Shown one piece after another: positions 8,886 through 56,497 of a DNA stretch of 64,000 bases; the first letter of the stretch is position 1, and the number at the start of each line of letters is the position of its first letter. Under the pieces are notes generated by a model that worked only from the letters and a program-made list of their open reading frames with translations, searched no databases and was not told where the DNA came from. The DNA comes from Candidatus Woesebacteria bacterium GW2011_GWB1_39_12. Lineage in GTDB: Bacteria > Patescibacteriota > Microgenomatia > UBA8517. Location of the stretch: contig LBWB01000012.1 of the NCBI GenBank assembly GCA_000993405.1, positions 37,777 through 101,776 of the forward strand, written 5' to 3'. The translations under genes were made by a program, and so were the position numbers.

Positions 8886-11627
8886 ATGAGCAAAGAGGAA
8901 ACCAAACAAAAAATCCAAGAGTTGGTCGATAAATATGAGAAAGCAAAACTTTCTCGTTCAATTTCTAAATATACAGAGGAAGAAACAAAAAAAGACTTTA
9001 TACTTCCATTATTTCAAGCTTTAGGCTGGAATATTTTTGATAAAAACGAGGTTAGTGCAGAAGAATCACAGTCGGGAGGACGAGTTGATTTTGGTTTTTA
9101 TTTTAAGGGCAGACTCAAATTTTATCTTGAGGCAAAATCTTTACGAACTGATCTTAATAGGGAAGAATTTGCTAATCAAGCCATCAAATATTCTTGGAAT
9201 AAGGGCGCAACCTGGGCAATTTTGACAGATTTCGAGGGCTTGAAAGTTTTCAACGCTCAAATTATCGATAGAAAACTTACGGACAAGCTTTATTTTGAAA
9301 TACTTTCAAACCAATATGTTGAAAGGTTTGATCAGCTTTGGTTACTCTCCAAAGGTGCTTTCGAAGAAAATTTAATTGATAAAGAAGCTGAAAAAGTCGG
9401 TAAAAAAATTCAAAGAGTTTCGGTAGGAATATCACTATATAAAGATTTAACCTTGTGCAGAGATATCTTAACCGACAAGCTTGGAAAAATGAATCCTGGG
9501 ATAGATAGTGAATTGTTAGACGAGGGTGTTCAGAAATTACTGGATAGACTTATATTTATAAGAGTTGCAGAAGATCGGGGAATAGAGCCACCAACATTAA
9601 TTCCTCTTATTCGTGCGTGGAAAAATAGCAAAAACCCAAACGAAATTCCTCTTTATAAGTCGATGGTTTCAAAGTTTAGAGAGCTAGATGAAACTTACAA
9701 TTCGAACCTTTTCACTAAACACCCATTGGAAGATTGGGAAGATTGGAGCAATATAACTGAACAAGTTGTAAAAATTCTCCAAGGAAAGCCGGGCTATTAC
9801 GAATATGACTTCAAAGCTATTCCCTCGGATGTTTTAGGAAGCGTTTATGAAAATTATCTAGGCTATAGACTTTCAAAATCCAAAAAAGGACTCACTCTCA
9901 GTAAAGACGCTAAAAAGAGAAAAGAACACGGAATCTACTATACTCCAGATTATATTGTTGACTATATTGTTAAAAATGCACTTAAACCGGTTCTGGACAA
10001 ATGTAATTCAGTAGCAGAGTTAAAGAAGATTAAGGTTTTAGATCCCGCTTGTGGTTCAGGCTCCTTTTTAATTAAAGCGATGGATTTAATTTACAAAAAA
10101 TATGAAGAATTTGGCAATCGAGGAGGGACATATACTAAATTAGCCATCCTGTTAGACAATATTTATGGTGTTGACCTTGATCCACAGGCAGTTGAAATAG
10201 CCAGGTTAAATCTTTTACTTAATATTCTTGAAGAAAAAATAAAACTTCCTTTACTTGATAAAAACATTAAAAACGGCAATTCTCTTATTTCAGGAACAGA
10301 TGAAGAGCTTAAAAGATATTTTGGAGAAAACTTCAGAGATAAAAAACCATTCAATTGGCAAGAAGAATTTCCGGAAGTATTCAAACAAGGTGGTTTTGAC
10401 GTAATTATAGGAAATCCGCCATATATAAGTTTTTATTCGAGGGAATCCCACTTAGACCAATATATACAAGATGTACAGTTTCTTACAGACAAATATGAGT
10501 TAACTCAAATATATTCTGACAGAAGACTAAATACCGTTATGTTTTTTATTGAAAGGTCTCTGCAGATACTGAGAGCTCATGGGAACTTGGGTTTTGTGAT
10601 AGATGCAAACTTTTTGGAAAAACCTTTCAGGGCACTTAGGTCATGGTTAGTGGAAAAGAAGTTCGTAGTTAAAATTTCACAAAAGTTTTCTGCTTTTAAC
10701 GAAGTGGCTAGCGATCAAAATCTTCTGTTTGTTAAAAAATCTAAGTCAGAGCTTCCTTTTGAAGTATTAAGTTTTGATGGAAATGTCGGAAACTTTACGA
10801 ACTCCAAAATCAAAGTTCTTTCTGAAAAGTTCAAAGAGGATGTGGTGAATCTAAATCCAAAGAAAATTAATCTTTATAAAGTTGGTATATTACCACTTAA
10901 GGAATTGGCGCTGGTTTCGACGGGTGTACAGATCGGAATAGGTGGAACAAGGGCATATGACGGACAAAACATTGAAAAATTGTTTTATTCTGAATCTAAA
11001 AAATCGGAGAAACATTTTGAAAATATATCGCTGAATCCAAAAGATTTCTTTCAATATTGTCCACCCAAAACAAAGAATTACCTGAATTTGGATGAAAAAT
11101 TAGCGTCTAAAATAAATAGAAACGTAAAAAAATGTAACATTGCAGTTACGAAAGCAAAACCATTTATAAACAAGGAAAAAATTTTTGTCAGACAATCTTC
11201 TTCATCGATTGTTGCAACTGTAGGTCAGCCAAGGCAAATTTCAGAGTATTCTGCCTTTATGATAAGACCTTTCCAGAAGCACGATACTCATTTCATTCTG
11301 GCAATTCTAAATTCTAAACCAATGACCTTATATGCTAAAGAGGAAAATGTAATTTTAATGGGTAATAAAAAACAACCACAAATCAGGCTAAAGGGTCTGA
11401 AAAAACTACCTTTTCCAGTTGTTGGTGTTAACCCAAAGAGGTCTTTGGCTAGTAAAGCACGGGTTATGTTACATCTCAACAATAAGTTGTTAAAAGTACA
11501 AGAAAACTCAGAAAAATGGAATTATATAAAATCAGAAATCGAGAAAACTGATAATAAAATTGATGAAGAAGTTTACAAACTCTACAACCTCACGGCTAAA
11601 GAAATTGAAATTGTGGAGAAAAGTTGA
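8886..11627 (+). CDS. MmeI-family Type IIL/IIG restriction-modification enzyme (fused PD-ExK nuclease, gamma-class N6-adenine methyltransferase and target-recognition domain)
   Basis: 913 aa. The N-terminal MmeI-like nuclease domain has VDFGFY...YLEAKS (D...EXK). It carries SAM motif I (VLDPACGSGSFL) and motif IV (IIGNPPYI), plus a long C-terminal TRD-like region. Confidence 0.7.
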   Translation: MSKEETKQKIQELVDKYEKAKLSRSISKYTEEETKKDFILPLFQALGWNIFDKNEVSAEESQSGGRVDFGFYFKGRLKFYLEAKSLRTDLNREEFANQAIKYSWNKGATWAILTDFEGLKVFNAQIIDRKLTDKLYFEILSNQYVERFDQLWLLSKGAFEENLIDKEAEKVGKKIQRVSVGISLYKDLTLCRDILTDKLGKMNPGIDSELLDEGVQKLLDRLIFIRVAEDRGIEPPTLIPLIRAWKNSKNPNEIPLYKSMVSKFRELDETYNSNLFTKHPLEDWEDWSNITEQVVKILQGKPGYYEYDFKAIPSDVLGSVYENYLGYRLSKSKKGLTLSKDAKKRKEHGIYYTPDYIVDYIVKNALKPVLDKCNSVAELKKIKVLDPACGSGSFLIKAMDLIYKKYEEFGNRGGTYTKLAILLDNIYGVDLDPQAVEIARLNLLLNILEEKIKLPLLDKNIKNGNSLISGTDEELKRYFGENFRDKKPFNWQEEFPEVFKQGGFDVIIGNPPYISFYSRESHLDQYIQDVQFLTDKYELTQIYSDRRLNTVMFFIERSLQILRAHGNLGFVIDANFLEKPFRALRSWLVEKKFVVKISQKFSAFNEVASDQNLLFVKKSKSELPFEVLSFDGNVGNFTNSKIKVLSEKFKEDVVNLNPKKINLYKVGILPLKELALVSTGVQIGIGGTRAYDGQNIEKLFYSESKKSEKHFENISLNPKDFFQYCPPKTKNYLNLDEKLASKINRNVKKCNIAVTKAKPFINKEKIFVRQSSSSIVATVGQPRQISEYSAFMIRPFQKHDTHFILAILNSKPMTLYAKEENVILMGNKKQPQIRLKGLKKLPFPVVGVNPKRSLASKARVMLHLNNKLLKVQENSEKWNYIKSEIEKTDNKIDEEVYKLYNLTAKEIEIVEKS

Positions 11628-13244: not shown

Positions 13245-13322
13245 CTCTTTTGGTGTCTCGTATTTAGTATTTAGGAATAATTTGCGTTGACAGTGAGTCT
13301 TTCATATAGTTTAATAGGGATT

Positions 13323-13610
13323 ATGGACGACGTTAAGAAAATGTTTAGAGTAATTGTTAACGGGCAGAGTGTAATAAAGCAAGAGTTGCTTTCGGAAATT
13401 AAGAAAGTAGACAAGAGCTTGAGCGGCAGAATTGATAGTTTAACTACAGAAATGAAAGACGGGTTTAAGAAAGTAAACAAACGTTTAGATTTAATAGGGA
13501 AATCAGTCGCCTTTCTTGAGGATGATACACCGACTAGAGAAGAACATGATAAATTAGAAAAACGCGTTTCTAAAGTAGAAAGAAAACTTCAAATTCAAGC
13601 ACCTGTTTAA
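13323..13610 (+). CDS. small coiled-coil protein, paralog copy 1 (96 aa from MDDVKKMF)
   Basis: ~90% identical to the ORF at 20532..20819, and the upstream 90 nt are also conserved. Confidence 0.55.
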   Translation: MDDVKKMFRVIVNGQSVIKQELLSEIKKVDKSLSGRIDSLTTEMKDGFKKVNKRLDLIGKSVAFLEDDTPTREEHDKLEKRVSKVERKLQIQAPV

Positions 13611-13616
13611 ATATTT

Positions 13617-13634
13617 TCTCCAAACTTGACCCCA
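13617..13634 (+). repeat. motif copy b (TCTCCAAACTTGACCCCA, short form)
   Basis: Starts 7 nt after the preceding stop codon. Confidence 0.8.
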
Positions 13635-14576: not shown

Positions 14577-14590
14577 CAAATTTGACCCCA
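14577..14590 (+). repeat. motif copy d (CAAATTTGACCCCA)
   Basis: Short form. It begins a ~300-bp segment that is duplicated at 18126..18440. Confidence 0.8.
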
Positions 14591-14673
14591 CAATTTTTTA
14601 GAGCGTTTTTTTCTACAGACTCCGCAACCCCTGTTTTGTTGACAAGCCCTGAAATAAGTTTTAAAGTTTTACC

Positions 14674-14871
14674 ATGAACGACGAAAGGGTAAGAGAGCAC
14701 CGCATCCCTCAAAACACAATTGTTGATAGGGGAGGGTATATCGGCCCAGGAGGCAGAATCAACGCCGAGCTTGTGCGGCCACCTGTTGCAGCATCGCCCA
14801 CAACAGAGATTCCACCCGCAGTTTCCCCGCAATCAACTGGAACCGAAAACCCACCACCTACAACGTATTAG
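14674..14871 (+). CDS. small Pro-rich protein, paralog copy 1 (65 aa, MNDERVREHRIP...)
   Basis: Paralog at 18221..18445 differs by an in-frame 27-nt indel and a few substitutions. The frame is conserved on the + strand, and TTGACA...TTAAAG lies upstream. Confidence 0.5.
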   Translation: MNDERVREHRIPQNTIVDRGGYIGPGGRINAELVRPPVAASPTTEIPPAVSPQSTGTENPPPTTY

Positions 14872-14883
14872 TAGTAATATTTT

Positions 14884-14951
14884 CTTCAAATCCTTCGGCA
14901 TGTTATAACAGTGAGCGTTGTCGAACTGCTCAGGACTATAGTTTGACCCCA
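14884..14951 (+). repeat. motif copy e, long form (CTTCAAAT-CCTTCGGCATGTTATAACAGTGAGCGTTGTCGAACTGCTCAGGACTATAG-TTTGACCCCA)
   Basis: 68 nt, starting 13 nt after the stop of the previous ORF. Confidence 0.8.
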
Positions 14952-15488: not shown

Positions 15489-15625
15489 CCAATTTGACCC
15501 CATAATCCATTCGGCTTCGCTCAGGACTATAGTCCATTCGACAAGTTATAACAGTGAGCGTTGTCGAACTGCTCAGGACATAGTCCTTCGGTTTTACTCA
15601 GAATCATAATTCTTCGATTTTTGTT
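15489..15625 (+). repeat. motif copy f, composite (short core CCAATTTGACCCCA plus ATAATCCATTCGGCTTCGCTCAGGAC, plus the GTTATAACAGTGAGCGTTGTCGAACTGCTCAGGAC insert segment at 15545..15579, plus a tail shared with 18471..18551)
   Basis: Sub-repeats are shared with copies g, h and j. Confidence 0.75.
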
Positions 15626-15644
15626 TGGGTTTGAGATATAATTA

Positions 15645-18120: not shown

Positions 18121-18139
18121 CTTCAAATTTGACCCTGCA
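18121..18139 (+). repeat. motif copy i (CTTCAAATTTGACCCTGCA)
   Basis: Start of the duplicated segment (copy 2). Confidence 0.8.
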
Positions 18140-18220
18140 ATTTTTTAGAGCGTTTTTTTCTACAAACTCCGCAACCCCTGTTTTGTTGACAAGCCCTGAA
18201 ATAAGTTTTAAAGTTTTACA

Positions 18221-18445
18221 ATGAACGACGAAAGGGTAGGAGAGCACCGCATTCCTAAAAACACAATTGTTGATAGGGGAGGGTATATCGGCGCAGGAGG
18301 CAGAATCAACGCCGAGCTTGTGCGACCACCCGAAGTCGTTCCTCCTATAAATCCGCCTGTCGCAGCATCGCTCACAACAGAGACGCCACCCGCTGTTCCC
18401 CCGCAACTATCTGGAAACGAAAACCCACCACTCACAACGTATTAG
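18221..18445 (+). CDS. small Pro-rich protein, paralog copy 2 (74 aa)
   Basis: See 14674..14871. A 9-aa insertion (EVVPPINPP) preserves the frame. Confidence 0.5.
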   Translation: MNDERVGEHRIPKNTIVDRGGYIGAGGRINAELVRPPEVVPPINPPVAASLTTETPPAVPPQLSGNENPPLTTY

Positions 18446-18457
18446 TAGTAATATTTT

Positions 18458-18551
18458 CTTCAAATCCTTCGGCAAGTTATAACAGTGAGCGTTGTCGAAC
18501 TGCTCAGGACTATAGTCCTTCGGTTTTACTCAGGATCACGATTCTTCGACT
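18458..18551 (+). repeat. motif copy j, long form variant (CTTCAAAT-CCTTCGGCAAGTTATAACAGTGAGCGTTGTCGAACTGCTCAGGACTATAG-TCCTTCGG...), with a tail shared with copy f
   Basis: Starts 13 nt after the stop. It is ~95% identical to 15545..15625 and lacks the terminal TTTGACCCCA. Confidence 0.75.
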
Positions 18552-18583
18552 TTTATTTATTGAAGCAGTATAATCGCCATAGA

Positions 18584-20461: not shown

Positions 20462-20531
20462 ACTTTTGGTATCTAGTATTTAGGAATAATTTGCGTTGAC
20501 GGTGAGTCTTTCATATAGTTTAATAGGGATT

Positions 20532-20819
20532 ATGGACGACGTTAAGAAAATGTTTAGAGTAATTGTTAACGGGCAGAGTGCAATAAAGCAAGAGTTGCTT
20601 TCGGAAATTAAGAAAGTAGACAAGAGCTTGAGCGGCAGAATTGATAGTTTAACTACAGAAATGAAAGAAGGGTTTAAGAAAGTAAACAAACATCTTGATA
20701 TGATTGGAAAGAGTGTTGCTTTTCTTGAAGACGACACACCGACCTGGGAGGAACATGATGAATTAGAAAAGCGGGTTACTAAAGTTGAGAAAAAACTTCA
20801 GATTCAAGCACATATTTAA
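20532..20819 (+). CDS. small coiled-coil protein, paralog copy 2
   Basis: See 13323..13610. Confidence 0.55.
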   Translation: MDDVKKMFRVIVNGQSAIKQELLSEIKKVDKSLSGRIDSLTTEMKEGFKKVNKHLDMIGKSVAFLEDDTPTWEEHDELEKRVTKVEKKLQIQAHI

Positions 20820-20826
20820 ATATGCT

Positions 20827-20869
20827 CTCCAAATCCTTCAGTATTATTCAGGACTGTAGTTTGACCACA
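20827..20869 (+). repeat. motif copy o, intermediate form (CTCCAAAT-CCTTCAGTATTATTCAGGACTGTAG-TTTGACCACA)
   Basis: Starts 8 nt after the stop and has a shortened insert. Confidence 0.7.
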
Positions 20870-20928: not shown

Positions 20929-21226
20929 AGTTATTTAATCGCGTCTCGAACCGCCTCCTCCTCTGTTGTCGTTTCCGCCCGAAGATCTCTCTTCTCGCGG
21001 TCTTGCTTCGTTAACAACTATTTTTCTTCCGCCAAGCTCCGTACCGTTTAACTCTTTTATTGCTTTATCTGCATTTGCATCGTCTGCAAACTCAACAAAA
21101 GCAAACCCCTTTCCTTGATTCGTAAACTTGTCGGTAATAACGTCAGCCGTAGTAACTTCTCCTATTTTCGAAAAAAGTTCCAGAAGCCCGTGAAACCTAT
21201 ACCTGAAGTATCGATTTAGTGCCTAT
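20929..21226 (-). pseudogene. RRM-type (RNP-1/RNP-2) RNA-binding protein gene, apparently 5'-truncated with no in-frame start
   Basis: The minus-strand translation ...GLLELFSKIGEVTTADVITDKFTNQGKGFAFVEFADDANADKAIKELNGTELGGRKIVVNEARPREERSSGGNDNRGGGGSRRD* contains RNP-1 (KGFAFVEF). The RNP-2 region is garbled, and no ATG/GTG/TTG precedes the in-frame stop. Confidence 0.5.
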
Positions 21227-23645: not shown

Positions 23646-26611
23646 ATGGCAAAAACAAAGCCCTTTTTCGAACCTCTTTCCCCGAATGTAGATTTTCCAA
23701 AATTGGAGGAAGAGCTTCTCAAGAAATGGAATAAAGAGGGGACTGTCAAAAGGTATCTTCAAAAGAACGAGAATTCTAAGAAAAACTTTTCCTTCTTGGA
23801 CGGTCCTATTACCGCAAATAATCCCATGGGAGTACATCATGCATGGGGGCGTACTTATAAGGACCTTTGGCAGAGGTTTTACAATATGCGCGGGTTCAAA
23901 CAAAGGTTCCAGAATGGCTTTGACTGTCAGGGACTTTGGGTTGAGGTTGAGGTTGAAAAAGAGCTCGGTTTAAAAAGTAAAAAAGATATTGAAAATTTAG
24001 TTCCGGGTGACGTTAAGGCAAGTATCGCCAAATTTGTAGAACTTTGTAGACAAAGAGTTTATAAATACGCAAAAATACAGACGGAACAATCCAAACGATT
24101 AGGGTATTTCATGGATTGGGATAATTCCTACTTCACCCTTTCTGAAGAGAATAACTATATGATTTGGCACTTTTTGAAAAAATGTAATGACCGCGGACTT
24201 ATTTATAAGGGACGCGATTCTGTTCCATGGTGTCCCCGCTGCGGGACCGCAATTTCTCAACACGAGATTCTGACGGAAGATTATAGAGAGCTAACACACG
24301 AGACTGTCTTTTTTAAGGTTCCGGTTAAAGACCGCGACTTTAGTTTATTGGCATGGACGACAACACCCTGGACAATTCCGGCGAATGTTGCTCTGGCAAT
24401 AAACCCTAAGTTTAAATATCGGGTTTGGAAACTTAATAATAAAGATACGATTTTAACGGTTAACCCCGATGAAATTGCTGACGCGGAATCTCGCGAGTGG
24501 TTTAATAAAAATGTTGTTGAAGCGGGATTCGTGCACGAAAAAGGTACTGAAGACATTCTTGGCAAAGATCTGGTAGGCCTCAAATATGAGGGCCCTTTTG
24601 ACGATTTACCAAGAGTTAAAGATGCTCTCAATAAAAATCCTGATACATTCCACTCTGTCATTGATGCGGAAGATTTGGTTGTTGCAACGAAAGGAACAGG
24701 AATCTTGCATGTAGCCCCTGGCGCCGGAGAAGAAGATTATAAATTGGGAAAAGAGAAAAATTTATCGGTAATTGATGTAATTAATGAAGAAGCCAATTAT
24801 TACGATCAATTAGGAGAATTTAGCGGGAAAAATGCTAAAAGGCATCCCGAGATTATAATCGATTTTCTTAAAAGTAAGGATGAAGGCAGGTTTCTTTTAA
24901 AAACAGCGAATATTACACACAGATATCCCGCTTGTTGGCGCTGTAAAACCGAGCTTGTTTGGAGAGTTGTTGATGAATGGTATATCGCTATTGACCCAGT
25001 TCGTGAAGATATGAAGAAAGTTACAAAGAGAATTCGCTGGATACCCGGTTTTGGTCTTAAAAGAGAGTTAGATTGGCTAAAGAATATGCATGATTGGCTG
25101 ATTAGTAAGAAAAGATATTGGGGTCTTGCTATACCGATCTGGGAATGCAAAAAATGCGGCAATTTTGAAGTTATTGGTAGCTATGAAGAGCTGAAGGAAA
25201 AAGCGGTTGACGGCTGGGAAAAATTTGAGGGCCATACTCCGCATAAGCCGTGGGTTGACGAAGTGAGAATTAAATGTTCTAAGTGCGGTGAGATTACTGA
25301 AAGGATACCGGATGTCGGGAACCCCTGGCTTGATGCCGGGATTGTCTCTTTTTCAACAATCTCGAAAGACAATAAAAGTGATCCTTTATATTGGTCGGAT
25401 AAGGAGGAATGGCAAAAGTGGTTTCCGGCCGATTTTATAACCGAAAGCTTTCCGGGACAATTTAAAAACTGGTTTTATTCTTTAATCGCAATGAGCGCTG
25501 TTTTAGAAAATAGGGAACCATTTAAAACCGTTAAGACGGCAGGCCTATGCATAAAAGTTGGGGAAACGCGATCGAATTTAATGAGGGCGCCGAGAAAATA
25601 GGTGTTGACGTTATGCGCTGGATGTACGTTCGCCAAAATCCTTCTGATAATCTGTTATTTGGTTACAAAATTGCGGACGAGACCAGGAGGAAATTCCATT
25701 TAACTCTTTGGAATATCTATAACTTCTTCGTGACTTATGCAAATCTCGATGATTGGCATCCTGTAGCAGGTCAACCGATTATTCTAAGAAATTTGCTTGA
25801 TGTGTGGGTTACCTCACGTTTGCAGGAAACACTCCTTGGGGTAACGAAATCTCTCGAAGATTATGACGCAAGATCGGCAAGCCAATTTATTGAGGACTTT
25901 GTGCAAGATATGTCTCTTTGGTATATAAGACGCTCAAGAAATCGTGTGGGATTAAGCGCACCGGATGCGACCGATAAAAAAGATTTTTACATTGTTTGTC
26001 ATTTTGTTTTAGTAAACCTGACTAAAATCTTAGCGCCCTTTACTCCTTTTTTGGCGGACATAATATTTACAAATCTCGTAAAGCTAGGGACTATATCAGT
26101 TCACCTGATTGACTGGCCGGACGCAAAATTTGTAAAGAATTTACAAGGATTACTCGGAGAAAAAAAGGAAGTGAAAAAGTTAATGAAATATATGCATTTG
26201 GTTAGAAGTGTCGTAGAAAAAGGTCATTCGGCCAGGAAAGAAGCAAGGTTGCCTGTTAGACAACCGCTAGCCTCGATAACAATCTACTTTGATGAGAGAT
26301 GTGATGCAAGGATGCTAAAGTTAATTGAAGATGAACTGAACGTTAAAGAGGTGATTTGGAAAAAAGGGAAGGAATTAAAAATAAAACTAGATACTAAGAT
26401 TACTCCGGAACTTGAAGAAGAGGCAAAGACAAGAGAATTAATTCGGAAAATTCAAGGTACAAGAAAAGAAATGGGTATAACCCTTACTCAAAAAGTTACT
26501 GTTTTAAGTCCCTGGCTTCCTCTGAATAAAGATCTTATTCAAAGAGTGAAGGATATTACGTTAACAAGGGACATTGGTAAAGGAGATTTTGAAGTTAAAG
26601 TTAGCAATTAA
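23646..26611 (+). CDS. ileS: isoleucyl-tRNA synthetase-like class I aaRS, split by a +1/-1 frameshift around 25540-25560
   Basis: N-terminal FLDGPITANNPMGVHHAWGRT (HIGH region variant), GFDCQGLW (like IleRS WDCHGLP), WCPRCGT zinc motif, and KMHKSWGN (KMSKS). KMHKSWGN is in the second ORF, directly after the frame break. Confidence 0.6.
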
Positions 26612-26622
26612 TGCTTTAGCTA

Positions 26623-27678
26623 ATGGTAAGTTTTTCAGCATCAAAAATTTGGGACCTAGTTTTAATAGTTTCGATTTCGCTCCTGATTCTTATTAGTACT
26701 TTTGTCTTGCATTCGGTTGAACCCAGCATTTTCCCTTCATATTTTGTTTATATTGGTATGGCTGTCTTTTTCTTTCTTTTTTTCATAAGAATCGATTTTG
26801 ATATATATCTTGCTTTCTCAACCCATCTGTATTTTTTGACATTGATTTTCCTTGTAATAACTCTTCTGATCGGTCAGGTGACCAGGGGAGCGGTTCGCTG
26901 GATTCCTTTGGGGGTAGTAACGATACAACCGTCAGAAGTAATGAGGGCCTTCCTACTTCTTTTTTTTGCAAAATATCTAACCGAAAAAGAAGTAAACCTG
27001 TCAAGGCTTATCAAGCTCTTTGTCAGTTTTTTGATTCCTTTCGGTCTAATTTTAGTTCAACCATCCCTGGGTGTTGCAATTCTAACTGCGGTTGGATTTT
27101 TTGGCATTCTTTTGGCGTCAAGCCTGGAGAAAAAATACTTTTTAGTGGGCCTTTTCATTTTTGTCGCCATTTTGCCACTCGTTTGGTTTATTCTTGCACC
27201 CTATCAAAGAGAAAGGTTAAGCTCGTTTGTTGATCCTGAGAGCGACCCACTAGGCTCCGGTTATAACAGTATTCAGTCTATGATTTCAGTCGGGTCGGGA
27301 AGATTTATAGGTCGCGGATTAGGTGAAGGTGTTCAAACGCAACTTGAGTTTTTGCCTGAAAAGCATACGGACTTTATTTTTGCTGCAATTTCCGAAGAAC
27401 TCGGATTTTTGGGAGCAGGTTTAATTATAACTGGTTTATTTATAGTTTTTTGGATTCTTATTCAAATCGTAGCAAATGCAAAAAATCCAACCGCTCGGGC
27501 ATATGTTACGGGAGTATTTTTGATTCTTTTTACACAGAGCCTTATTCATATAGGGATGAACATGGGACTTTTGCCGATAACGGGTGTTCCTTTACCTTTT
27601 GTCTCATCCGGGGGTTCCTCCCTTCTGGGAACCGTAGTTGCAGTTGTAATTTCGTTAAAGGCTAAAGCTGAGAGTTAG
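26623..27678 (+). CDS. SEDS-family peptidoglycan glycosyltransferase (RodA/FtsW)
   Basis: Signature GLLPITGVPLPFVSSGGSSL, with 9-10 TM helices. Confidence 0.8.
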   Translation: MVSFSASKIWDLVLIVSISLLILISTFVLHSVEPSIFPSYFVYIGMAVFFFLFFIRIDFDIYLAFSTHLYFLTLIFLVITLLIGQVTRGAVRWIPLGVVTIQPSEVMRAFLLLFFAKYLTEKEVNLSRLIKLFVSFLIPFGLILVQPSLGVAILTAVGFFGILLASSLEKKYFLVGLFIFVAILPLVWFILAPYQRERLSSFVDPESDPLGSGYNSIQSMISVGSGRFIGRGLGEGVQTQLEFLPEKHTDFIFAAISEELGFLGAGLIITGLFIVFWILIQIVANAKNPTARAYVTGVFLILFTQSLIHIGMNMGLLPITGVPLPFVSSGGSSLLGTVVAVVISLKAKAES

Positions 27679-34171: not shown

Positions 34172-34849
34172 ATGATACAAGATGATGCGACCCGCTGGGA
34201 CTTAATTCACAAAAAGTCTTATAAGACGAGTGAAACCCACTCAAAATATGCTGAAGAGAAAGAAGCATTATTCCCCAGAAACTCACTCGTTGTCGAACTC
34301 GGGGCAGGCAGGGGGGCTGACGCCATATATTTTCTTACCAAGGGTCATAGCGTAATAGCATTGGATATATCCCCTTTCGCCCTGAAGTTACTACAGGAGA
34401 AGGTTAAAGGATTAAATTTGGGAAAAAAGCTTGTCGTTAGGCAGGTTGATTTTGGTTTGCAAGCTATACCTATCAAAGACGACTCAATCGACGTGGTTTA
34501 TTCAAGAATTTCACTAAATTACTTTGGAGCTAAACAAACGACCAAAACATTCAAGGATATTTATAGGATATTAAAGCTAGGAGGTATGGCTTTTATAACT
34601 ATGAAATCACCCGATGACTCCTTGGAAATGCAATATCTGGAAAGAAGTTCAACTTTATACGAACCTAACGTTTTTATTGAGGGTGGTATGCTTAGGAGTA
34701 GATTTACACAAGAGCAGCTCAAAGTCATTTTGAAGGAGGCGGAAATACCTGGTTTTGAACTAGATTCATACCAGGAAGATTTAACTTCTAAGGGAGAAGA
34801 GCACAACAAGACTCTTTTTGTCAACGAGATTAATTTCAAAAAAGTCTAA
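34172..34849 (+). CDS. class I SAM-dependent methyltransferase
   Basis: Motif I VVELGAGRGADAIYF and motif post-I VIALDIS. The start is chosen at MIQDD to avoid overlap with the previous gene. Confidence 0.65.
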   Translation: MIQDDATRWDLIHKKSYKTSETHSKYAEEKEALFPRNSLVVELGAGRGADAIYFLTKGHSVIALDISPFALKLLQEKVKGLNLGKKLVVRQVDFGLQAIPIKDDSIDVVYSRISLNYFGAKQTTKTFKDIYRILKLGGMAFITMKSPDDSLEMQYLERSSTLYEPNVFIEGGMLRSRFTQEQLKVILKEAEIPGFELDSYQEDLTSKGEEHNKTLFVNEINFKKV

Positions 34850-34871
34850 GAGTGTCTGAAGAGTCCTTTAG

Positions 34872-35168
34872 TCAACTAAAAAGCCCTATTATAGGGCCCA
34901 AAGGAATTAAAAATAAAAACCTGATATTTATGAGTGCTAGGATAACAAAGATTAAAGAAGTGAAGCTGCCGAATAGGACCCAAACCCAGGCCTTATTATA
35001 CCAGGTTGCAACTTCTTCATTGGGTCTTTCAAGTTTAGGTTTTTTTAATTCACGAACGTTGACGACGCTTAAGATGGTGGAAGGAGTGTCTTTTCCTTTT
35101 TGTTCGGAAAAGGTACTCTCTTTTTCCATTTGGTTGGATGTTATTCCTGTTCCCGGAATGTGAGTCAT
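34872..35168 (-). CDS. small membrane protein (hypothetical); the coding strand is ambiguous (a + strand ORF at 34852..35163 also exists)
   Basis: A C-terminal TM helix on the minus-strand ORF. Neither ORF has motifs. Confidence 0.25.
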   Translation of the reverse strand: MTHIPGTGITSNQMEKESTFSEQKGKDTPSTILSVVNVRELKKPKLERPNEEVATWYNKAWVWVLFGSFTSLIFVILALINIRFLFLIPLGPIIGLFS

Positions 35169-35551
35169 TTGATTTAGTATAACACTATGGTTGCGTTTAC
35201 GAATTCTGTGGTGTATAAATGTAAATGTACCGCTATTACTTATGCTCGACTATTTTATTAAGACTAAATCATACTTGGCTGGTTTAAAGCTCTGAGGCGA
35301 CGTTTTGTAAGGGGTGCGGTGGAGGTTGAAGCAATTGATAGAGCAGTAAGACGAACGAAAATAAAAAGGGAAAAATTAGGAGGTATTTATAAATATAAAA
35401 TTCAAGGGACAGATGGAAATTGGTTTGAGCCTGAGGAGAGAATTTGGGTTGTTGCAATGTATGCGCTTTGGCAAGACTCAAAGTGAACTGCTTCTTGTAA
35501 ATCTTCGATACTTTATTCTACTATATATTTAAAGATTTAAGGCTTAATCTG

Positions 35552-35992
35552 ATGTTAACAAAACTCAAATTTTTTACATACGCTTTCACTAAGTTTCGAA
35601 AGAAAAGTTGGAGACAGAAATTATTGTATTTTTACATCACTGGGCTTATCCTGGGAATAGTAATTCTAGCTCTATATGCCTTTATTCCATCCTTAATTTT
35701 TTGCACTCCAATTTTCGGCCAACAAGTTTGTACACCGGCAGGAATATTATTAGCCTTGGTTTTGTCTCTCCCTGGGTATTTGATTGCAGGTAATTTATTG
35801 CAATTTCTGCCTGAATTGGCATGGGGCATATCGCTTGTGGTAATAATCGTAGTTTCGGCAGCTTTTTATTATCTCTCGGGATGGTTAATTGACCAAAAGC
35901 TCGAAAAGAAATTGTCGACATCAACCTTCAGTAAATATTTAATACTTTTTGTTTTTGCCGTATTGGTTCTGATATTAATTTCATTGATTTAA
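35552..35992 (+). CDS. hypothetical membrane protein (4 TM)
   Basis: 146 aa and hydrophobic. Confidence 0.45.
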   Translation: MLTKLKFFTYAFTKFRKKSWRQKLLYFYITGLILGIVILALYAFIPSLIFCTPIFGQQVCTPAGILLALVLSLPGYLIAGNLLQFLPELAWGISLVVIIVVSAAFYYLSGWLIDQKLEKKLSTSTFSKYLILFVFAVLVLILISLI

Positions 35993-37863
35993 TGAAACGT
36001 CTTCTTAGATATTTTTTAGCTTTTGCGGCCCTTTTTTATTTTTTGAAAACTCCGGGAATTGCAAATGCCCAAGGGAAATACGAGATAAGAAGTATTGAAA
36101 GCGAGATAACTCTTGAAAAAGATACGACTTTGGCAGTTAAAGAGACGATAATAATAAACTTTCCTGAATTCCGTCACGGCATTTTTAGAATAATTCCTGT
36201 TGTTTATTCTTACAAAGGTAAAACCATAAAAGCCGACTTTAAATTATTAAGCGTCAAAGACGAGAACGGAAATTCTTACAAATATGAAAAAAGTAGACTT
36301 GGTCAGAGTATACAGTTAAAAATTGGTGATCCTGATGTGGTAATTGATGGGGTTCATACTTATGTTTTGACATACAAAATTGATGACATTCTGCAAAGAT
36401 ACGATACTTATGATGAAATCTATTGGAATATAACAGGACACGAGTGGGATACAGATATAAATAATGCTTTCGCTAAAGTTGTTTCGCCTCACGCAAAAAT
36501 AGAAAAAGTTGATTGTTTTGCCGGAATTTTCGGATCGACTGAAAAATTATGTAATTCTGCTTTTTCAGAAAATAATGCAGACTTTTATTCAACGACGGTT
36601 CTTGGAGATGGCCGTGATTTTACCGTCGTTATCGCTTTGAATAAAGAAAGCGATCTTATCTTTCCCGGAAAAGTCCAAAATGCTCTTGATTTTATTCTTG
36701 ATAACTGGGGCTATTTAGTTTCGATTCTTCCTTTTATGGCCATGGCCTACTTTTGGTTTAAGAAAGGAAGAGACAAAAAATATTTAGGAGATAATATCTA
36801 TTATGCAACTGACAAGAAAAAGGTAATAGACAGACCGTTATTTGCAAGGGAACACTTACCGCTGGTTTATTCTCCGATTCAAGGCTTTTCACCTTCAGAA
36901 ATTGGAACCGTAGTCGATGAGAAAGTGGATATTCACGATATCGTTGCCGAAATTACTGAGCTTGCGCGATTAGGTTTTCTTAAAATTGAAAAAATAGAAA
37001 AAAAGAAACTATTGGGAAGCGAGACGGACTTTGCCTTTGTCAAACTTGATAAAGATACCAAGGATTTAGCTGAATACCAAACATACTTATTAGAAAAATT
37101 ATTTGATAAAGATATGGTGGCAAAATCTTTGAAAGCGGTTGAAAGTTTTTATAGTAATAATGAAAATAAGTTAAAGGATACGTTAAAATTAATTAGCGAA
37201 GATAATTATGTGCTTCTTTCATCTTTAAAAAATAACTTCTATAAACATTTGGAGGATTTTAGGAAAAAATTATACGACTCGCTTGATATTGAAGGTGTTT
37301 TCGACGGAAAGCCGGATAAAGTAAAACAAAAATGGATAGGAGTATTTGTAATTCTGGAATTCATCTCTGGTTTTGTTGTTGTTAATTTCGCAAACGCAAC
37401 AGCTAATTTCTTTCCCTTAATAGTATTAGCAATTCTTTCCGTACCTTCAATATTATTCACTATATCGATGCCGAGAAGAACTGCTAAAGGCTTTTCTTTA
37501 TATAGACAAATAAAGGGACTGGCATTTTATCTAGGAAAAGGAAAATGGCGGGAAGAAATTGCTGAAAAGCACTTGTTTTTCGGGGAAATGTTACCTCTGG
37601 CGATAGCACTCGGAGTTGTTGATAAGTTGGCAAAAGAGATGGAAGTTCTGGGAATTCCTGCACCAAACTATTTTGGAGGAGTAGCTACGGGGGCAATTTA
37701 CCACGATTTAACAAAGTTTGAGTCAAGCGCATCCAGCACTTTTATGTCTTCGCCTGGCGGTAAGTTTTCAGGCTCATCATCATGGAGCGGCGGCTCGGGT
37801 TTCAGCGGAGGTGGTGGCTTCTCCGGCGGGGGATTTGGTGGAGGTGGAGGAGGAAGCTGGTAA
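35992..37863 (+). CDS. DUF2207-like membrane protein with a Gly-rich C-terminal tail
   Basis: Signal peptide, a large extracellular N-terminal domain, TM helices, and a C-terminal GGSGFSGGGGFSGGGFGGGGGGSW. Confidence 0.55.
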   Translation: MKRLLRYFLAFAALFYFLKTPGIANAQGKYEIRSIESEITLEKDTTLAVKETIIINFPEFRHGIFRIIPVVYSYKGKTIKADFKLLSVKDENGNSYKYEKSRLGQSIQLKIGDPDVVIDGVHTYVLTYKIDDILQRYDTYDEIYWNITGHEWDTDINNAFAKVVSPHAKIEKVDCFAGIFGSTEKLCNSAFSENNADFYSTTVLGDGRDFTVVIALNKESDLIFPGKVQNALDFILDNWGYLVSILPFMAMAYFWFKKGRDKKYLGDNIYYATDKKKVIDRPLFAREHLPLVYSPIQGFSPSEIGTVVDEKVDIHDIVAEITELARLGFLKIEKIEKKKLLGSETDFAFVKLDKDTKDLAEYQTYLLEKLFDKDMVAKSLKAVESFYSNNENKLKDTLKLISEDNYVLLSSLKNNFYKHLEDFRKKLYDSLDIEGVFDGKPDKVKQKWIGVFVILEFISGFVVVNFANATANFFPLIVLAILSVPSILFTISMPRRTAKGFSLYRQIKGLAFYLGKGKWREEIAEKHLFFGEMLPLAIALGVVDKLAKEMEVLGIPAPNYFGGVATGAIYHDLTKFESSASSTFMSSPGGKFSGSSSWSGGSGFSGGGGFSGGGFGGGGGGSW

Positions 37864-37902
37864 TCTCACAAGGAGTATCCTTGTAGAAATAAATTATTTA
37901 TA

Positions 37903-39714
37903 TTAAAGAAGATTATTGATGAGGATCTCAATTTGTTTTTGGAGGTAAAGTGAAACATTATCGCTTATAAATTGAGGAGTTGCAAATCTAACCTTTTGAA
38001 GTGCTAACTCCATTAGGATTTTTGACGAAATTCCTTGTCCTTTATCATTATTCTTTTGCGAATTTTCGATAAGCTGATGGATAGAGGTGTATAAACCATG
38101 ATTACTTATATATCCATCTTTGTATATGTCATCAAAGAATGAAAGTACAGATTCAAAATTTACTTCGGATACAATTATATTATTTAGGTCTTCGTTATCA
38201 AAATAGATTTCGAGAAGGTCAGATGATTCATCAGTCGTTGATCCAAAATAACTTCCAATTTTGATCTCGCCATTATTGTTGAAAAAATAGTAATCAAGTT
38301 GATACACTCCGTCTCCATAAATTTCAACTTCGTAATTTCCAATATCCGGTTTTGGATAATAGAAAGCATTGAGAGTCTCAACTCCACTATCTAAATCTGG
38401 ATTATCAGGATCCATCATTGGACCCTCTTTGAAGTAAAATTCATCGCCAACTATTACGCCAGATTCGCTACTAACTTTTATATCAAAATCTTCATTGACA
38501 AAAAGAACTATATATGAAAGATCAGTATTTGAGGGCCTAAATCTTCCAAGCTTTAGAGTGTTTCCCCAATAAGAATTCGCTTGAGCAAGAGTTATTTTAG
38601 TTGTGGCTGGATCGTTAATATTAATATCACTATTACTATAACCTTTAGCTACAACAAAATGATTACCGCCGTAAGCATCATTCTCGAGCTTTAATACTGA
38701 AGGTCTATTTAGGTCAATTTCGCTTTTAGCTAAACTTTCGGAATAATTTAAGTATGAAAATTCAAGTTTTGGAGTATCAGGATCTAATGAAGAATACCTG
38801 GATACAGTCGGCCAAAGAATCGCACCATTTCTTGCGTAACCGTTATTGTTTTTTAGCCAGTTATTAAGTAATTCAGGAGTAGTGTTGTTTCCATGAAAAT
38901 TAAGCACCATCGCAGCTGAAGTCATGGCACAACCCCATCGGGATATTTTTGGATTACTAGGTGACCAATTAGAGGCATTGTCATATTCTTGCGGCCCCCA
39001 AGGAGGTGAATATTGCTTAATATCAGGAACGTTTAGCAAAGTTTCCGGTTCATCTAAAGATTTTACAACCACATTGTCAAACCAAACCTCCGAAGTGGGT
39101 GTTCCACCCGCACTCGCAACAAGAGCAATATTAGAATTCTCGAAAAAAGGAGAATTTTCGCTAATTGTTTCCAAAACGCCATCATTTATATAAATTTTGT
39201 ATTCGTTTGTACTGTTTAATATTTCAACCTTTATTTTATAAGTTATATTATTTTGAAAAGGATACACCATAATCCATCCGGTAGGAAAATGTTGAATCCC
39301 GCTTACGACTTTTTCAAAGTAAATCGTTTGTCCGTAGAAGTGTAAATCATACCAGTTTGTTAAATTTTTAATTTTGAAGGAAAAATTTCTATCCATATAA
39401 ATATCGGGGGTCATTGTAATTTCAACTTCTACTGCATAATCGGTATTAATTGGGATGTTTAAATTCTGAGGTATGTTAAATGTGTTACAACCTCCACCGT
39501 TAATGATTATTCCATACTTACCATTTTGAAAAGTCCATTCAGCTGGAGAGTTATTGAATTTGCAAGTATTTCGTATAACAGTCCAGCCATTTATATTGCC
39601 ATGTTCAAAATCATCTTGAAATAAAATTGTTTGGGATTTAATTACTATTGGATGGACTAACGGTAGTAATGAGAAGATTAAAAAAATAATACTAGAATAG
39701 AGAATTTTTTTCAT
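37903..39714 (-). CDS. secreted protein with an N-terminal LamG/concanavalin-like region and a C39-like (Peptidase_C39_2/papain-fold) domain
   Basis: Signal peptide, FQDDFEHGNINGWT, and the candidate Cys nucleophile region SRWGCAMTSAAMVLNFHG ... GGNHFVVAKGY. Confidence 0.5.
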   Translation of the reverse strand: MKKILYSSIIFLIFSLLPLVHPIVIKSQTILFQDDFEHGNINGWTVIRNTCKFNNSPAEWTFQNGKYGIIINGGGCNTFNIPQNLNIPINTDYAVEVEITMTPDIYMDRNFSFKIKNLTNWYDLHFYGQTIYFEKVVSGIQHFPTGWIMVYPFQNNITYKIKVEILNSTNEYKIYINDGVLETISENSPFFENSNIALVASAGGTPTSEVWFDNVVVKSLDEPETLLNVPDIKQYSPPWGPQEYDNASNWSPSNPKISRWGCAMTSAAMVLNFHGNNTTPELLNNWLKNNNGYARNGAILWPTVSRYSSLDPDTPKLEFSYLNYSESLAKSEIDLNRPSVLKLENDAYGGNHFVVAKGYSNSDININDPATTKITLAQANSYWGNTLKLGRFRPSNTDLSYIVLFVNEDFDIKVSSESGVIVGDEFYFKEGPMMDPDNPDLDSGVETLNAFYYPKPDIGNYEVEIYGDGVYQLDYYFFNNNGEIKIGSYFGSTTDESSDLLEIYFDNEDLNNIIVSEVNFESVLSFFDDIYKDGYISNHGLYTSIHQLIENSQKNNDKGQGISSKILMELALQKVRFATPQFISDNVSLYLQKQIEILINNLL

Positions 39715-48626: not shown

Positions 48627-48636
48627 TTTTTACGAG

Positions 48637-48708
48637 AGCCGATGAGAGGAGTTGAACCTCTAACCTCTCCCTTACGAAGGGATTGCTCTACCATTGAGCT
48701 ACACCGGC
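48637..48708 (-). tRNA. tRNA-Thr (anticodon CGT)
   Basis: Reverse complement GCCGGTGTAGCTCAATGGTAGAGCAATCCCTTCGTAAGGGAGAGGTTAGAGGTTCAACTCCTCTCATCGGCT. The anticodon loop is TTCGTAA. Confidence 0.8.
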
Positions 48709-48751: not shown

Positions 48752-49363
48752 CTAATAACCCCAATTTCCAATTAATTTTTTAAGCATTTGTTCATCGACT
48801 CGTCCAACTAATCCACTCCAAACTTCCCTAGATTCTTCGGGATGTGACACAGTCATTTCAACCTTAATATTTTCAAAACTTTTTGACCAATTTTCCAAAT
48901 CTTTCCTAAAGGCAATTTCCTCGGGGATTGAATTGGAATAGATAAGGTGAAGTTTTGTATCAGATAATTTATTGTCAATGTTATATTTGATAAAACTTCT
49001 GAATGGGGTAATGCCTATGCCTCCTGCTATAAGAACATAATTGCCTTTTTGGTTTTCATCCAAAATAAAAGTCCCGTTCGGACCTTCGCCTTCAACCTCA
49101 TCATTAATTTTGAGTTCATCTAAGGATTTTTTATAGCCAGATTCTTGACGTATCCTGGTAGTTAACCTCAACACTTTTCCCTCTGTAGGAGAGGAAGATA
49201 TCGTGAAATGCCTTGTAGCCCCTCTGGCATCAGGATATCTGATATTTGGAAGCGTGTAGTAAAAATATTGACCTGGAAGCCAATTTACTTCCCTTTCCGG
49301 CTCAAAAAAGAATGATTTTGTTCCCTTTGCTTCGTCTCTTTTTTCGACAAGTTTTAACTTCAT
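48752..49363 (-). CDS. ferredoxin-NADP reductase-like FAD/NAD(P)-binding oxidoreductase domain protein
   Basis: RHFTISSSP (FAD-binding RxYS/T) and GGIGITPF (NAD-binding GGxGxxP). Confidence 0.65.
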   Translation of the reverse strand: MKLKLVEKRDEAKGTKSFFFEPEREVNWLPGQYFYYTLPNIRYPDARGATRHFTISSSPTEGKVLRLTTRIRQESGYKKSLDELKINDEVEGEGPNGTFILDENQKGNYVLIAGGIGITPFRSFIKYNIDNKLSDTKLHLIYSNSIPEEIAFRKDLENWSKSFENIKVEMTVSHPEESREVWSGLVGRVDEQMLKKLIGNWGY

Positions 49364-54426: not shown

Positions 54427-54477
54427 TAGTGGTTAGTTGGTTCATTTTTTATAGATCATTGTTTTTTTAAACTAACT

Positions 54478-55113: not shown

Positions 55114-55217
55114 GTAATTGGGTAACGGTTATGATGCCCGTTTCGGATACGTCAGTCGGTTACGTTACCATTACCGTAATACAATACGGGCTTCTTAGCC
55201 CTAACCGTAAAACATTT

Positions 55218-56494: not shown

Positions 56495-56497
56495 GGG

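What the first reader, a model, noticed from the sequence alone, without database searches (positions are those of the whole stretch)
25530..25605. Frameshift in the essential class I aminoacyl-tRNA synthetase gene directly before the KMSKS motif
The first reading frame ends ...FKTVKTAGLCIKVGETRSNLMRAPRK*. The second frame begins immediately with ...DGRPMHKSWGNAIEF, which carries the KMSKS-equivalent. The homologous region in IleRS reads ...V.THGF.LD..G.KMSKS.GN, so a 1- or 2-nt indel lies between roughly 25535 and 25550. As the gene is essential, this is most likely an assembly or sequencing error in an A/G-rich stretch. A rarer possibility is a recoding event.
Basis: seen in the sequence. 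Interest (0 to 1): 0.5.

Follow-up and report, generated by a model that had tools for sequence, protein, structure and literature searches.

The report
IleRS gene broken by 25-base deletion
The isoleucyl-tRNA synthetase gene looks split here only because 25 bases are missing from this one metagenome-assembled genome; every other assembly of the same groundwater bacterium has the gene intact, so this is a defect of the record, not recoding.

Summary
The break is real in the sequence. ileS is read as a 651-codon ORF (23646-25601) and an overlapping 354-codon ORF (25547-26611) in the -1 frame. The lesion is not a 1-2 nt indel in an A/G-rich run. The window lacks exactly 25 nt (CTTGGTTTTGCAACGCTTCTTGCTG) between 25532 and 25533. 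That removes codons for LGFATLLA plus one base, the conserved strand just before the KMSKS-equivalent (PMHKS).

The window is Candidatus Woesebacteria GW2011_GWB1_39_12. Its sibling MAG GWA1_39_12 and at least 13 contigs from eight other assemblies carry an intact 996-codon gene with 100% identical flanks.

The window has four more private deletions (100, 37, 79 and 123 nt). It has no private substitutions in 63.7 kb, 0-2 nt of junction microhomology, and four of the five deletions disrupt genes.

There is no slippery site, no stimulatory structure, and no conservation of the break in relatives. Any frameshifted or two-piece product would still lack nine conserved residues.

Best reading: consensus errors in a low-coverage MAG.

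Caveat: short Logan contigs from run SRR29904083 reproduce at least four of the five junctions. Reads of that run therefore carry them, and a real loss-of-function haplotype or a library-level artefact is not excluded. Low interest.

The parts
23646..25532 (+). ileS 5' part, codons 1-629 of the intact 996-codon gene. It covers the HIGH-region Rossmann half, the CP1/editing insertion, and most of the second Rossmann half, up to ...EPFKTV.
   Evidence: tblastn of P0001 residues 1-629 is 100% identical. Pfam tRNA-synt_1 matches profile positions 2-368 of 414. TIGR00392 matches positions 5-605 of 861.
25532..25533 (.). Junction of the 25-nt deletion. The missing bases are CTTGGTTTTGCAACGCTTCTTGCTG, which encode L630-A637 plus the first base of the E638 codon. 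The junction creates a TAA at 25532-25534 in the downstream frame.
   Evidence: Alignment to L001-L006, L008 and L009. BLAST shows 100% identity over 4351 nt on the left and 4079 nt on the right of the gap. Microhomology is 0 nt.
25533..25601 (+). Out-of-frame tail of the first ORF (KTAGLCIKVGETRSNLMRAPRK, then stop). It is the KMSKS region read in the wrong frame.
25535..26611 (+). ileS 3' part, codons 639-996, in the -1 frame. It begins DGRPMHKSWGN (the KMSKS equivalent) and continues through the anticodon-binding domain and C-terminal domain. The first start codon is the ATG at 25547, giving the 354-codon ORF annotated as KKR00446.1.
   Evidence: tblastn of residues 639-996 is 100% identical. 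Pfam finds Anticodon_1 and DUF5915.
21181..21182 (.). Second private deletion, 100 nt. It removes the start codon, the ribosome-binding site and about 20 codons of an RRM_1 RNA-binding protein gene on the minus strand.
   Evidence: All 10 sibling loci are intact.
34872..34873 (.). Third private deletion, 37 nt. It truncates a 119-codon hypothetical gene to 98 codons.
   Evidence: All 4 sibling loci here are intact. The intact 119-aa product is recorded in 31 blocks of the collection. The 98-aa form is found only in this MAG and one Logan run.
35286..35289 (.). Fourth private deletion, 79 nt, with 2 nt of junction ambiguity. It frameshifts a 107-codon hypothetical gene.
   Evidence: All 4 sibling loci are intact.
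48760..48761 (.). Fifth private deletion, 123 nt and in frame. It removes 41 codons near the 3' end of a FAD/NAD(P)-binding oxidoreductase gene, reducing it from 244 to 203 codons. The deletion ends in a CCAATTT tandem repeat.
   Evidence: All 7 sibling loci are intact. The 244-aa form is KKQ97781.1 and the 203-aa form is KKR00471.1.

Best explanation
The ileS break is a 25-bp deletion private to the consensus sequence of one metagenome-assembled genome, Candidatus Woesebacteria bacterium GW2011_GWB1_39_12. It does not reflect how the organism makes IleRS.

The population this MAG was drawn from has an ordinary, uninterrupted 996-codon ileS. The 25 missing bases encode LGFATLLA(E). This is the Rossmann-fold strand that leads into the KMSKS loop, and it aligns to ICHGLILDE of Thermus thermophilus IleRS.

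The deletion is one of at least five short deletions (25-123 nt) in this 64-kb window, and they are the only differences from the common haplotype.

The most likely origin is inferred, not shown. This is a low-coverage short-read de Bruijn assembly; the '_39_12' in the name reads as 39% GC and about 12x coverage. Contigs probably ended at short uncovered or strain-variable stretches and were joined or 'closed' without the intervening bases. The annotation then split the gene into KKR00445.1 and KKR00446.1. No recoding, frameshifting or split-enzyme mechanism is involved.
For: Identity of the record:
- The two ORF products are exactly KKR00445.1 and KKR00446.1 of GW2011_GWB1_39_12.

The gene is intact elsewhere:
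- The intact 996-aa product P0001 (KKQ97756.1, sibling MAG GWA1_39_12) is on 13 contigs.
- P0124 and P0125 add two more contigs.
- All eight separately assembled samples read here have the 25 nt.

The flanks are identical:
- 100% identity over 4351 nt on the left and 4079 nt on the right.

The pattern of private differences:
- There are five deletions of 100, 25, 37, 79 and 123 nt. Each is absent from all 4-10 siblings covering the site. There are no private insertions.
- Of 63,721 covered positions, only 4 differ from all siblings. All 4 abut deletion junctions and are alignment-edge effects. By contrast, 335 positions are polymorphic among the siblings.
- Junction microhomology is 0-2 nt and no motif is shared among the deleted segments.
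- Four of the five deletions disrupt genes and one of five is in frame, as expected for deletions placed without selection.

A possible cause at the ileS site:
- The left breakpoint is exactly the last base before the first strain-variable position of the L004 allele. A de Bruijn contig would be expected to stop there.

The lost residues matter:
- The (V/I)LGF(A/G)TL(L/F)x segment is present in all 102 homologues matched, down to about 58% identity.
- It aligns to the strand preceding KMSKS in 1ILE.
- The intact protein passes the TIGR00392 cutoff (629.3 against 621.4). The two halves score 466.1 and 137.7 and do not.

Literature:
[quoted passage not shown] One 1.13-Mb CPR genome had 13 of them (PMC7111523).
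- The same laboratory's pipeline is IDBA-UD plus Velvet re-assembly of scaffolding errors (PMC4736985).
Against: Short Logan contigs of run SRR29904083 encode exactly the same junction products.
- For ileS: the 544-aa C-terminal part of ORF1, including its frameshifted tail, and the 354-aa ORF2 with the same 55-nt overlap.
- For the 37-nt deletion: the 98-aa product. The gene spacing of 384 nt, against 463 nt when intact, also implies the 79-nt deletion.
- For the 123-nt deletion: the 203-aa product.

A k-mer graph contig cannot contain a junction that no read contains. Reads of that run therefore carry at least four of the five deletions.

Five of the six Logan contig ends lie within about 65 nt of natural strain-variable sites. 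This looks more like a real community, or a simulation from many strains, than a single simulated genome.

I could not retrieve that run's DNA or metadata.

At the other four deletion sites, no strain variant was seen among the siblings.

A check of 10 large genes found no comparable private truncations in the sibling MAG GWA1_39_12 (inconclusive).
Confidence: 0.68

Rival explanations
1. The 25-bp deletion, and the four others, exist in real DNA molecules of one sample. They could be a genuine loss-of-function haplotype, meaning a very recent dead-end or otherwise complemented lineage. They could instead be an artefact made before assembly, for example a low-input or amplified library in which few template molecules dominate. 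On this reading both assemblers reported them faithfully.
For: Logan contigs of SRR29904083 carry the same junction products for at least four of the five deletions. A de Bruijn contig needs read support for every k-mer. Logan contig ends coincide with natural polymorphic sites. The deletion alleles are seen only in GWB1_39_12 and this one run, which fits one sample or library as the source.
Against: There are no private substitutions against five private 25-123-nt deletions in 63.7 kb. That is not a natural mutational spectrum. Microhomology is absent. Four of the five deletions are gene-disrupting, one of them in single-copy ileS, and no second copy is in the window. At this density, roughly 80 deletions per Mb, the genome would not be viable. 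The intact haplotype is found in every other assembly: 31 collection blocks for one intact allele, including Logan SRR1658343.
Confidence: 0.25
2. Programmed -1 ribosomal frameshifting, or another recoding event, joins the two frames into one IleRS.
For: The downstream part is in the -1 frame, and the two ORFs overlap by 55 nt.
Against: A useful shift would have to occur within 25533-25536, because a TAA closes the -1 frame at 25532-25534 and DGRPMHKS starts at 25535. The sequence there, GTT AAG ACG, is not slippery. The only slippage-prone site, A AAA TAG at 25595-25601, lies after the KMSKS region has already been read in the wrong frame. The downstream RNA folds no better than shuffles, with z = +1.56. 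The break is absent from all close and distant relatives. Any product would still lack nine conserved residues.
Confidence: 0.01
3. A functional split IleRS. The 651-aa N-terminal piece and the 354-aa C-terminal piece, which starts at the M of PMHKS, would assemble non-covalently. This happens in naturally split or experimentally cleaved class I synthetases.
For: ORF2 starts with an ATG exactly at the KMSKS-equivalent, and it overlaps ORF1, so translational coupling is conceivable. Most genes in this window lack a Shine-Dalgarno motif, so its absence here does not argue against translation. From my own knowledge, not checked here: split LeuRS in Aquifex and fragment complementation of E. coli IleRS are documented.
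Against: Thirteen residues are lost from both pieces: LGFATLLAE by the deletion, and DGRP upstream of the ATG. They include a core Rossmann strand conserved in all 102 homologues matched. No relative has a split gene; all 120 best hits are 891-1042 aa single chains. The split is one of five random-looking deletions. There is no sequence divergence that would indicate the split has been maintained.
Confidence: 0.02

Closest known systems
Local assembly or scaffolding errors in short-read MAGs, especially IDBA-UD assemblies (Chen et al. 2020, Genome Res, PMC7111523)
   Same: A short stretch of consensus is wrong in one assembly only. It breaks a protein-coding gene and propagates fragment proteins into public databases. 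The frequency is of the same order: 13 errors in a 1.13-Mb CPR genome there, against 5 in 64 kb of an approximately 12x bin here.
   Different: By that definition, such errors have no perfect read support. Here a second data set, Logan SRR29904083, reproduces the junctions. Read support could not be examined directly.
Intact orthologue: isoleucine--tRNA ligase KKQ97756.1 of Candidatus Woesebacteria GW2011_GWA1_39_12 (P0001; TIGR00392 ileS)
   Same: It is 100% identical over residues 1-629 and 639-996, with the same gene neighbourhood (cupin gene, ileS, FtsW/RodA, L21, L27, ParB).
   Different: The window lacks residues 630-638 and shifts frame, so neither ORF reaches the family cutoff.
Programmed frameshift genes such as prfB (+1) and dnaX (-1)
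   Same: Two overlapping frames encode parts of one protein.
   Different: There is no slippery site at a useful position, no stimulatory structure, and no conservation of the shift among relatives. Coding sequence is physically missing.
Naturally split aminoacyl-tRNA synthetases, such as the Aquifex aeolicus LeuRS alpha/beta subunits (from my own knowledge, not tested here)
   Same: A class I synthetase is encoded as an N-terminal catalytic piece and a C-terminal piece.
   Different: Natural splits keep all conserved residues and are conserved in a lineage. Here a conserved core strand is deleted, and the split is private to one assembly.

Membership tests
Isoleucine--tRNA ligase (NCBIfam TIGR00392 ileS; Pfam tRNA-synt_1 + Anticodon_1) | The whole-protein score reaches the curated equivalog cutoff of 621.4 bits. 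| tested here: not met
   The window ORFs score 466.1 and 137.7 bits. The intact orthologue P0001 scores 629.3 and passes. The locus is ileS by descent, but neither product in the window qualifies as a complete enzyme.
Isoleucine--tRNA ligase (NCBIfam TIGR00392 ileS; Pfam tRNA-synt_1 + Anticodon_1) | A KMSKS-type loop preceded by the Rossmann strand (..HG....D..G.KMSKS.GN) in one reading frame. | tested here: not met
   The loop variant PMHKSWGN is present at 25544-25567, but only in the -1 frame. The preceding strand LGFATLLAE is deleted.
Isoleucine--tRNA ligase (NCBIfam TIGR00392 ileS; Pfam tRNA-synt_1 + Anticodon_1) | An anticodon-binding domain C-terminal to the catalytic domain. | tested here: met
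   Pfam Anticodon_1 scores 9.4e-22 in the second ORF.
Programmed -1 ribosomal frameshift site | A slippery X XXY YYZ heptamer at a position that yields the functional frame. | tested here: not met
   The usable interval is 25533-25536 (GTT AAG ACG), bounded by the TAA at 25532-25534 in the -1 frame. There is no heptamer there.
Programmed -1 ribosomal frameshift site | A stable stimulatory structure downstream. | tested here: not met
   The MFE is -27.1 kcal/mol against a shuffle mean of -32.7, z = +1.56.
Programmed -1 ribosomal frameshift site | The frameshift is conserved in orthologues. | tested here: not met
   All 120 best homologues are single uninterrupted proteins. All near-identical contigs have the intact frame.
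Naturally split aaRS (two-gene enzyme) | Both pieces together retain all conserved catalytic-core residues. | tested here: not met
   Nine residues (630-638) are deleted, and DGRP lies upstream of the only start codon.
Naturally split aaRS (two-gene enzyme) | The split arrangement is maintained in a lineage. | tested here: not met
   It is seen only in this MAG and one Logan run, with identical sequence. Relatives are unsplit.
Local assembly error (sensu Chen et al. 2020) | The consensus at the site is not supported perfectly by any read of the source sample. | not testable with these tools
   There was no access to reads. Logan contigs of SRR29904083 imply read support in that run, but its relation to the source sample is unknown.
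Local assembly error (sensu Chen et al. 2020) | The discrepancy is private to one assembly, while independent assemblies of the same population agree with each other. | tested here: met
   Five of five deletions are absent from all 4-10 sibling assemblies, and there are no private substitutions.

The most novel reading that the evidence does not exclude
The deletion-bearing haplotype is a real, propagating Woesebacteria lineage, resampled in SRR29904083. It would have acquired a burst of end-joining-type deletions and would survive with ileS expressed as two polypeptides lacking a core Rossmann strand, or by relying on another source of Ile-tRNA charging.
Probability: 0.03. Interest if true: 0.6.

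Novelty: not a real feature. Interest (0 to 1): 0.08.

Why it matters
The main value is database hygiene. KKR00445.1 and KKR00446.1, and their UniRef entries, are fragments of one gene. At least four neighbouring genes in this MAG are damaged in the same way. Claims of aaRS loss, pseudogenisation or recoding in CPR/Patescibacteria that rest on this record would be wrong.

The case also shows a quick way to recognise such defects. Compare a low-coverage MAG with sibling assemblies of the same population. Private medium-sized deletions with no private substitutions are the signature.

If the deletions turned out to be real in reads, the interest would shift to what produced a deletion-only haplotype.

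Tried and rejected
- Exact and gapped pattern scans of genome contigs and metagenome contigs, for the junction and for a shared 42-mer. All four returned nothing, so these collections do not hold this organism.
- Looking up the 651-aa ORF in the contig index. It was not on record there. The cluster look-up later showed it is NCBI KKR00445.1.
- A site-specific nuclease or hairpin origin. No k-mer of 5 nt or more is shared by the five deleted segments. By eye, only a weak 4-7 bp imperfect inverted repeat flanks the ileS deletion. I dropped this idea.
- Replication slippage. There are no direct repeats at the ileS junction. A TTCTTG repeat inside the region would predict an 18-nt in-frame deletion, which is not what is observed.
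- Round deletion sizes (25, 100) as a sign that N-runs had been stripped. The other sizes are 37, 79 and 123. The GenBank proteins read straight across the junctions, so the deposited record has no N-runs there.
- Private truncations in the sibling MAG GWA1_39_12, checked in 10 large genes. None was evident, which is inconclusive.
- The L004 synonymous patch as a sign of targeted cleavage or homing. Similar mosaic patches occur throughout the region in other siblings, so it is ordinary strain mosaicism.
- Literature searches for SRR29904083 and for GW2011_GWB1_39_12. Neither gave a hit.
- A second ileS copy in the window. None was found.
Full report
**What is in the sequence.**
The window has an ORF at 23646-25601 (651 codons) ending ...EPFKTVKTAGLCIKVGETRSNLMRAPRK*. 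A second ORF at 25547-26611 (354 codons) begins MHKSWGNAIEF. The second frame is open from 25535 (DGRPMHKSWGN...), directly after a TAA at 25532-25534. It is the -1 frame relative to the first ORF, and the two ORFs overlap by 55 nt. Pfam places tRNA-synt_1 (profile positions 2-368 of 414) in the first ORF, and Anticodon_1 plus DUF5915 in the second.

**What the lesion is.**
A search with the joined protein found a 996-aa isoleucyl-tRNA synthetase, P0001. It is 99% identical and is named for Candidatus Woesebacteria bacterium GW2011_GWA1_39_12. It reads ...EPFKTVLGFATLLAEDGRPMHKSWGN....

tblastn of P0001 against the window gives residues 1-629 at 23646-25532 and residues 639-996 at 25535-26608. 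Both matches are 100% identical, in two frames, and there is no other copy in the window.

At the DNA level the window is 100% identical to contig L001 over 4351 nt to the left and 4079 nt to the right. It lacks exactly 25 nt, CTTGGTTTTGCAACGCTTCTTGCTG, between 25532 and 25533. That is eight codons (LGFATLLA) plus the first base of the next GAA codon.

So this is neither a 1-2 nt indel nor a homopolymer or A/G-run error. The junction (ACCGTT|AAGACGG) has no microhomology.

**What is lost.**
The nine missing residues align to ICHGLILDE of Thermus thermophilus IleRS (1ILE). This is the strand immediately before K-M-S-K-S.

The segment (V/I)LGF(A/G)TL(L/F)x is present in all 102 homologues in which the motif could be located, down to about 58% identity. 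The KMSKS equivalent in this clade is PMHKS (91 homologues) or AMHKS (11 homologues).

The intact protein passes the NCBIfam ileS equivalog cutoff, 629.3 against 621.4 bits. The two window products score 466.1 and 137.7 and do not pass.

**Where the window comes from, and what sister sequences show.**
The two ORF products are exactly KKR00445.1 and KKR00446.1 of GW2011_GWB1_39_12, on a 143,536-nt contig.

The intact product is on 13 contigs in the contig index. Near-identical intact variants are on two more contigs. All eight separately assembled samples whose DNA I read have the 25 nt in the same gene neighbourhood. These are ERZ909588, ERZ909590, ERZ27254728, ERZ27254732, ERZ27254749, ERZ27254767, ERZ28563683 and ERZ28563774. 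More distant relatives at 83% and 73% identity are also uninterrupted. Sister genomes therefore do not carry the break.

**The break is one of several.**
Using other window genes as handles, I fetched sibling contigs covering 63,721 of the 64,000 positions.

The window lacks:
- 100 nt after 21181
- 25 nt after 25532
- 37 nt after 34872
- 79 nt after about 35288
- 123 nt after 48760

In each case, all 4-10 siblings covering the site are intact and identical to one another across it. The one exception is the L004 allele at the ileS site. The window has no sequence that the siblings lack.

Only four positions differ from every sibling, and all four abut deletion junctions, so they are alignment-edge effects. 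By contrast, 335 positions are polymorphic among the siblings. That makes five private medium-sized deletions against zero private substitutions.

Other properties of the five deletions:
- Junction microhomology is 0-2 nt.
- No shared motif of 5 nt or more was found.
- Four of the five disrupt genes: the start of an RRM protein gene, ileS, and two hypothetical genes.
- The fifth removes 41 codons in frame from an oxidoreductase gene.

This is what deletions placed without regard to function look like. It does not match the mutational spectrum of a diverging lineage.

**Most likely origin (inferred).**
I read the MAG name as 39% GC and about 12x coverage; that reading rests on my own knowledge of the naming convention. 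The laboratory's pipeline for these Rifle samples is IDBA-UD, followed by detection of scaffolding errors and Velvet re-assembly (PMC4736985).

[quoted passage not shown] These are stretches of consensus unsupported by any read. One 1.13-Mb CPR genome had 13 of them (PMC7111523).

At the ileS site, the left breakpoint is exactly the last base before the first variable position of an alternative allele. That allele, L004, has 11 synonymous differences in 42 nt. A graph-based contig would be expected to end there.

My best reading is that contigs ended at short uncovered or variable stretches and were abutted or 'closed' without the missing bases. Gene calling then split ileS.

**The unresolved complication.**
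Short Logan contigs of run SRR29904083 (2.8, 4.3 and 4.7 kb) encode exactly the junction-specific products:
- the last 544 residues of ORF1, including the frameshifted tail, plus the 354-aa ORF2 with the same 55-nt overlap;
- the 98-aa product of the 37-nt deletion, with gene spacing of 384 nt against 463 nt when intact, which also implies the 79-nt deletion;
- the 203-aa product of the 123-nt deletion.

A k-mer graph contig cannot contain a junction that no read contains, so reads of that run carry these deletions. Five of the six contig ends lie within about 65 nt of natural strain-variable sites.

I could not obtain the run's DNA or metadata, and no paper mentions it. Three possibilities remain:
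- The run derives from deposited sequences.
- The run is the same sample or library as the MAG, so the deletions are in the DNA or the library.
- The haplotype is real, which is far less likely given the deletion-only spectrum and its lethality.

The deletion alleles occur nowhere else. One intact allele, by contrast, is indexed in 31 blocks of the collection, including Logan SRR1658343 from the original Rifle series.

**Recoding and a split enzyme.**
A productive -1 shift would have to happen within 25533-25536 (GTT AAG ACG), which is not slippery. The only slippage-prone site, A AAA TAG at the end of ORF1, lies after the KMSKS region has already been read in the wrong frame. The downstream RNA is less stable than shuffled controls, z = +1.56.

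A two-piece enzyme would lack LGFATLLAE, and also DGRP, because the only start codon is the M of PMHKS. No relative is split. The absence of a Shine-Dalgarno motif is uninformative, because 38 of 41 long ORFs here lack one. Both ideas are rejected as explanations of function.

**Verdict.**
The break is real in the record, but its size, position and context were wrong.
- The interpretation as an error, not biology, is largely supported.
- The feature is not a biological feature of the organism. It is a defect of one low-coverage MAG consensus, with a residual possibility (about one in four) that the deletions exist in the molecules of one sample or library.
- Interest is low. The practical value is flagging the fragment proteins and the other damaged genes in this record.

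Noticed in passing
window 21181/21182, 34872/34873, ~35288, 48760/48761: There are four further deletions private to this assembly (100, 37, 79 and 123 nt) relative to all sibling assemblies. They damage an RRM_1 gene, two hypothetical genes and a FAD/NAD(P)-binding oxidoreductase gene (244 to 203 codons).
   Followed up: yes
L004:3880-3940 (ERZ27254728 k141_692354), corresponding to window 25533-25546 plus the missing 25 nt: This is an alternative ileS allele with 11 synonymous substitutions packed into 42 nt exactly over the deletion site. The rest of the 8-kb locus is essentially identical. Similar mosaic patches occur in other siblings: L003 at window 26817-27145, L009 at 24024-24056 and 24424-24449, and L026 at 57734-57795. 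These suggest short recombination tracts or chimeric strain consensus in this population.
   Followed up: partly
Logan run SRR29904083 (contigs covering roughly window 23965-26752, 34623-38876 and 53047-57769): A second public data set reproduces at least four of the five private deletions of this MAG. Its nature (same sample, re-sequencing, or simulated) could not be established.
   Followed up: partly
window 25544-25558 and homologues P0001-P0120: The class I KMSKS signature is PMHKS in 91 and AMHKS in 11 of the 122 closest IleRS homologues (Woesebacteria/Patescibacteria). The first lysine is replaced by Pro or Ala, and the first serine by His.
   Followed up: partly
whole window (41 long ORFs): 38 of 41 long ORFs have no Shine-Dalgarno-like tetramer or pentamer within 4-18 nt upstream of the start codon. 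Translation initiation in this organism seems largely SD-independent.
   Followed up: no
window 13260-13624 vs 20469-20833; 14577-14942 vs 18124-18516; 15533-15626 vs 18465-18558: Dispersed direct repeats of 90-96% identity lie within a 7-kb stretch of small hypothetical genes. They include duplicated 95-codon ORFs.
   Followed up: no
window 8886-11627 (+): A 913-codon fused restriction-modification gene of the MmeI/Eco57I type (N6_Mtase, MmeI_Mtase, Eco57I, TaqI_C domains), followed by a MerR/HTH gene.
   Followed up: no
window 52585-54426 (+): A family X DNA polymerase with a PHP domain (HHH_8, DNA_pol_B_thumb, PHP). GatA/GatB amidotransferase genes lie nearby at 57015-60012.
   Followed up: no
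window 48636-48708 (-): tRNA-Thr(CGT) lies about 50 nt from the 123-nt deletion. That deletion ends in a CCAATTT tandem repeat, a context prone to mis-assembly.
   Followed up: no
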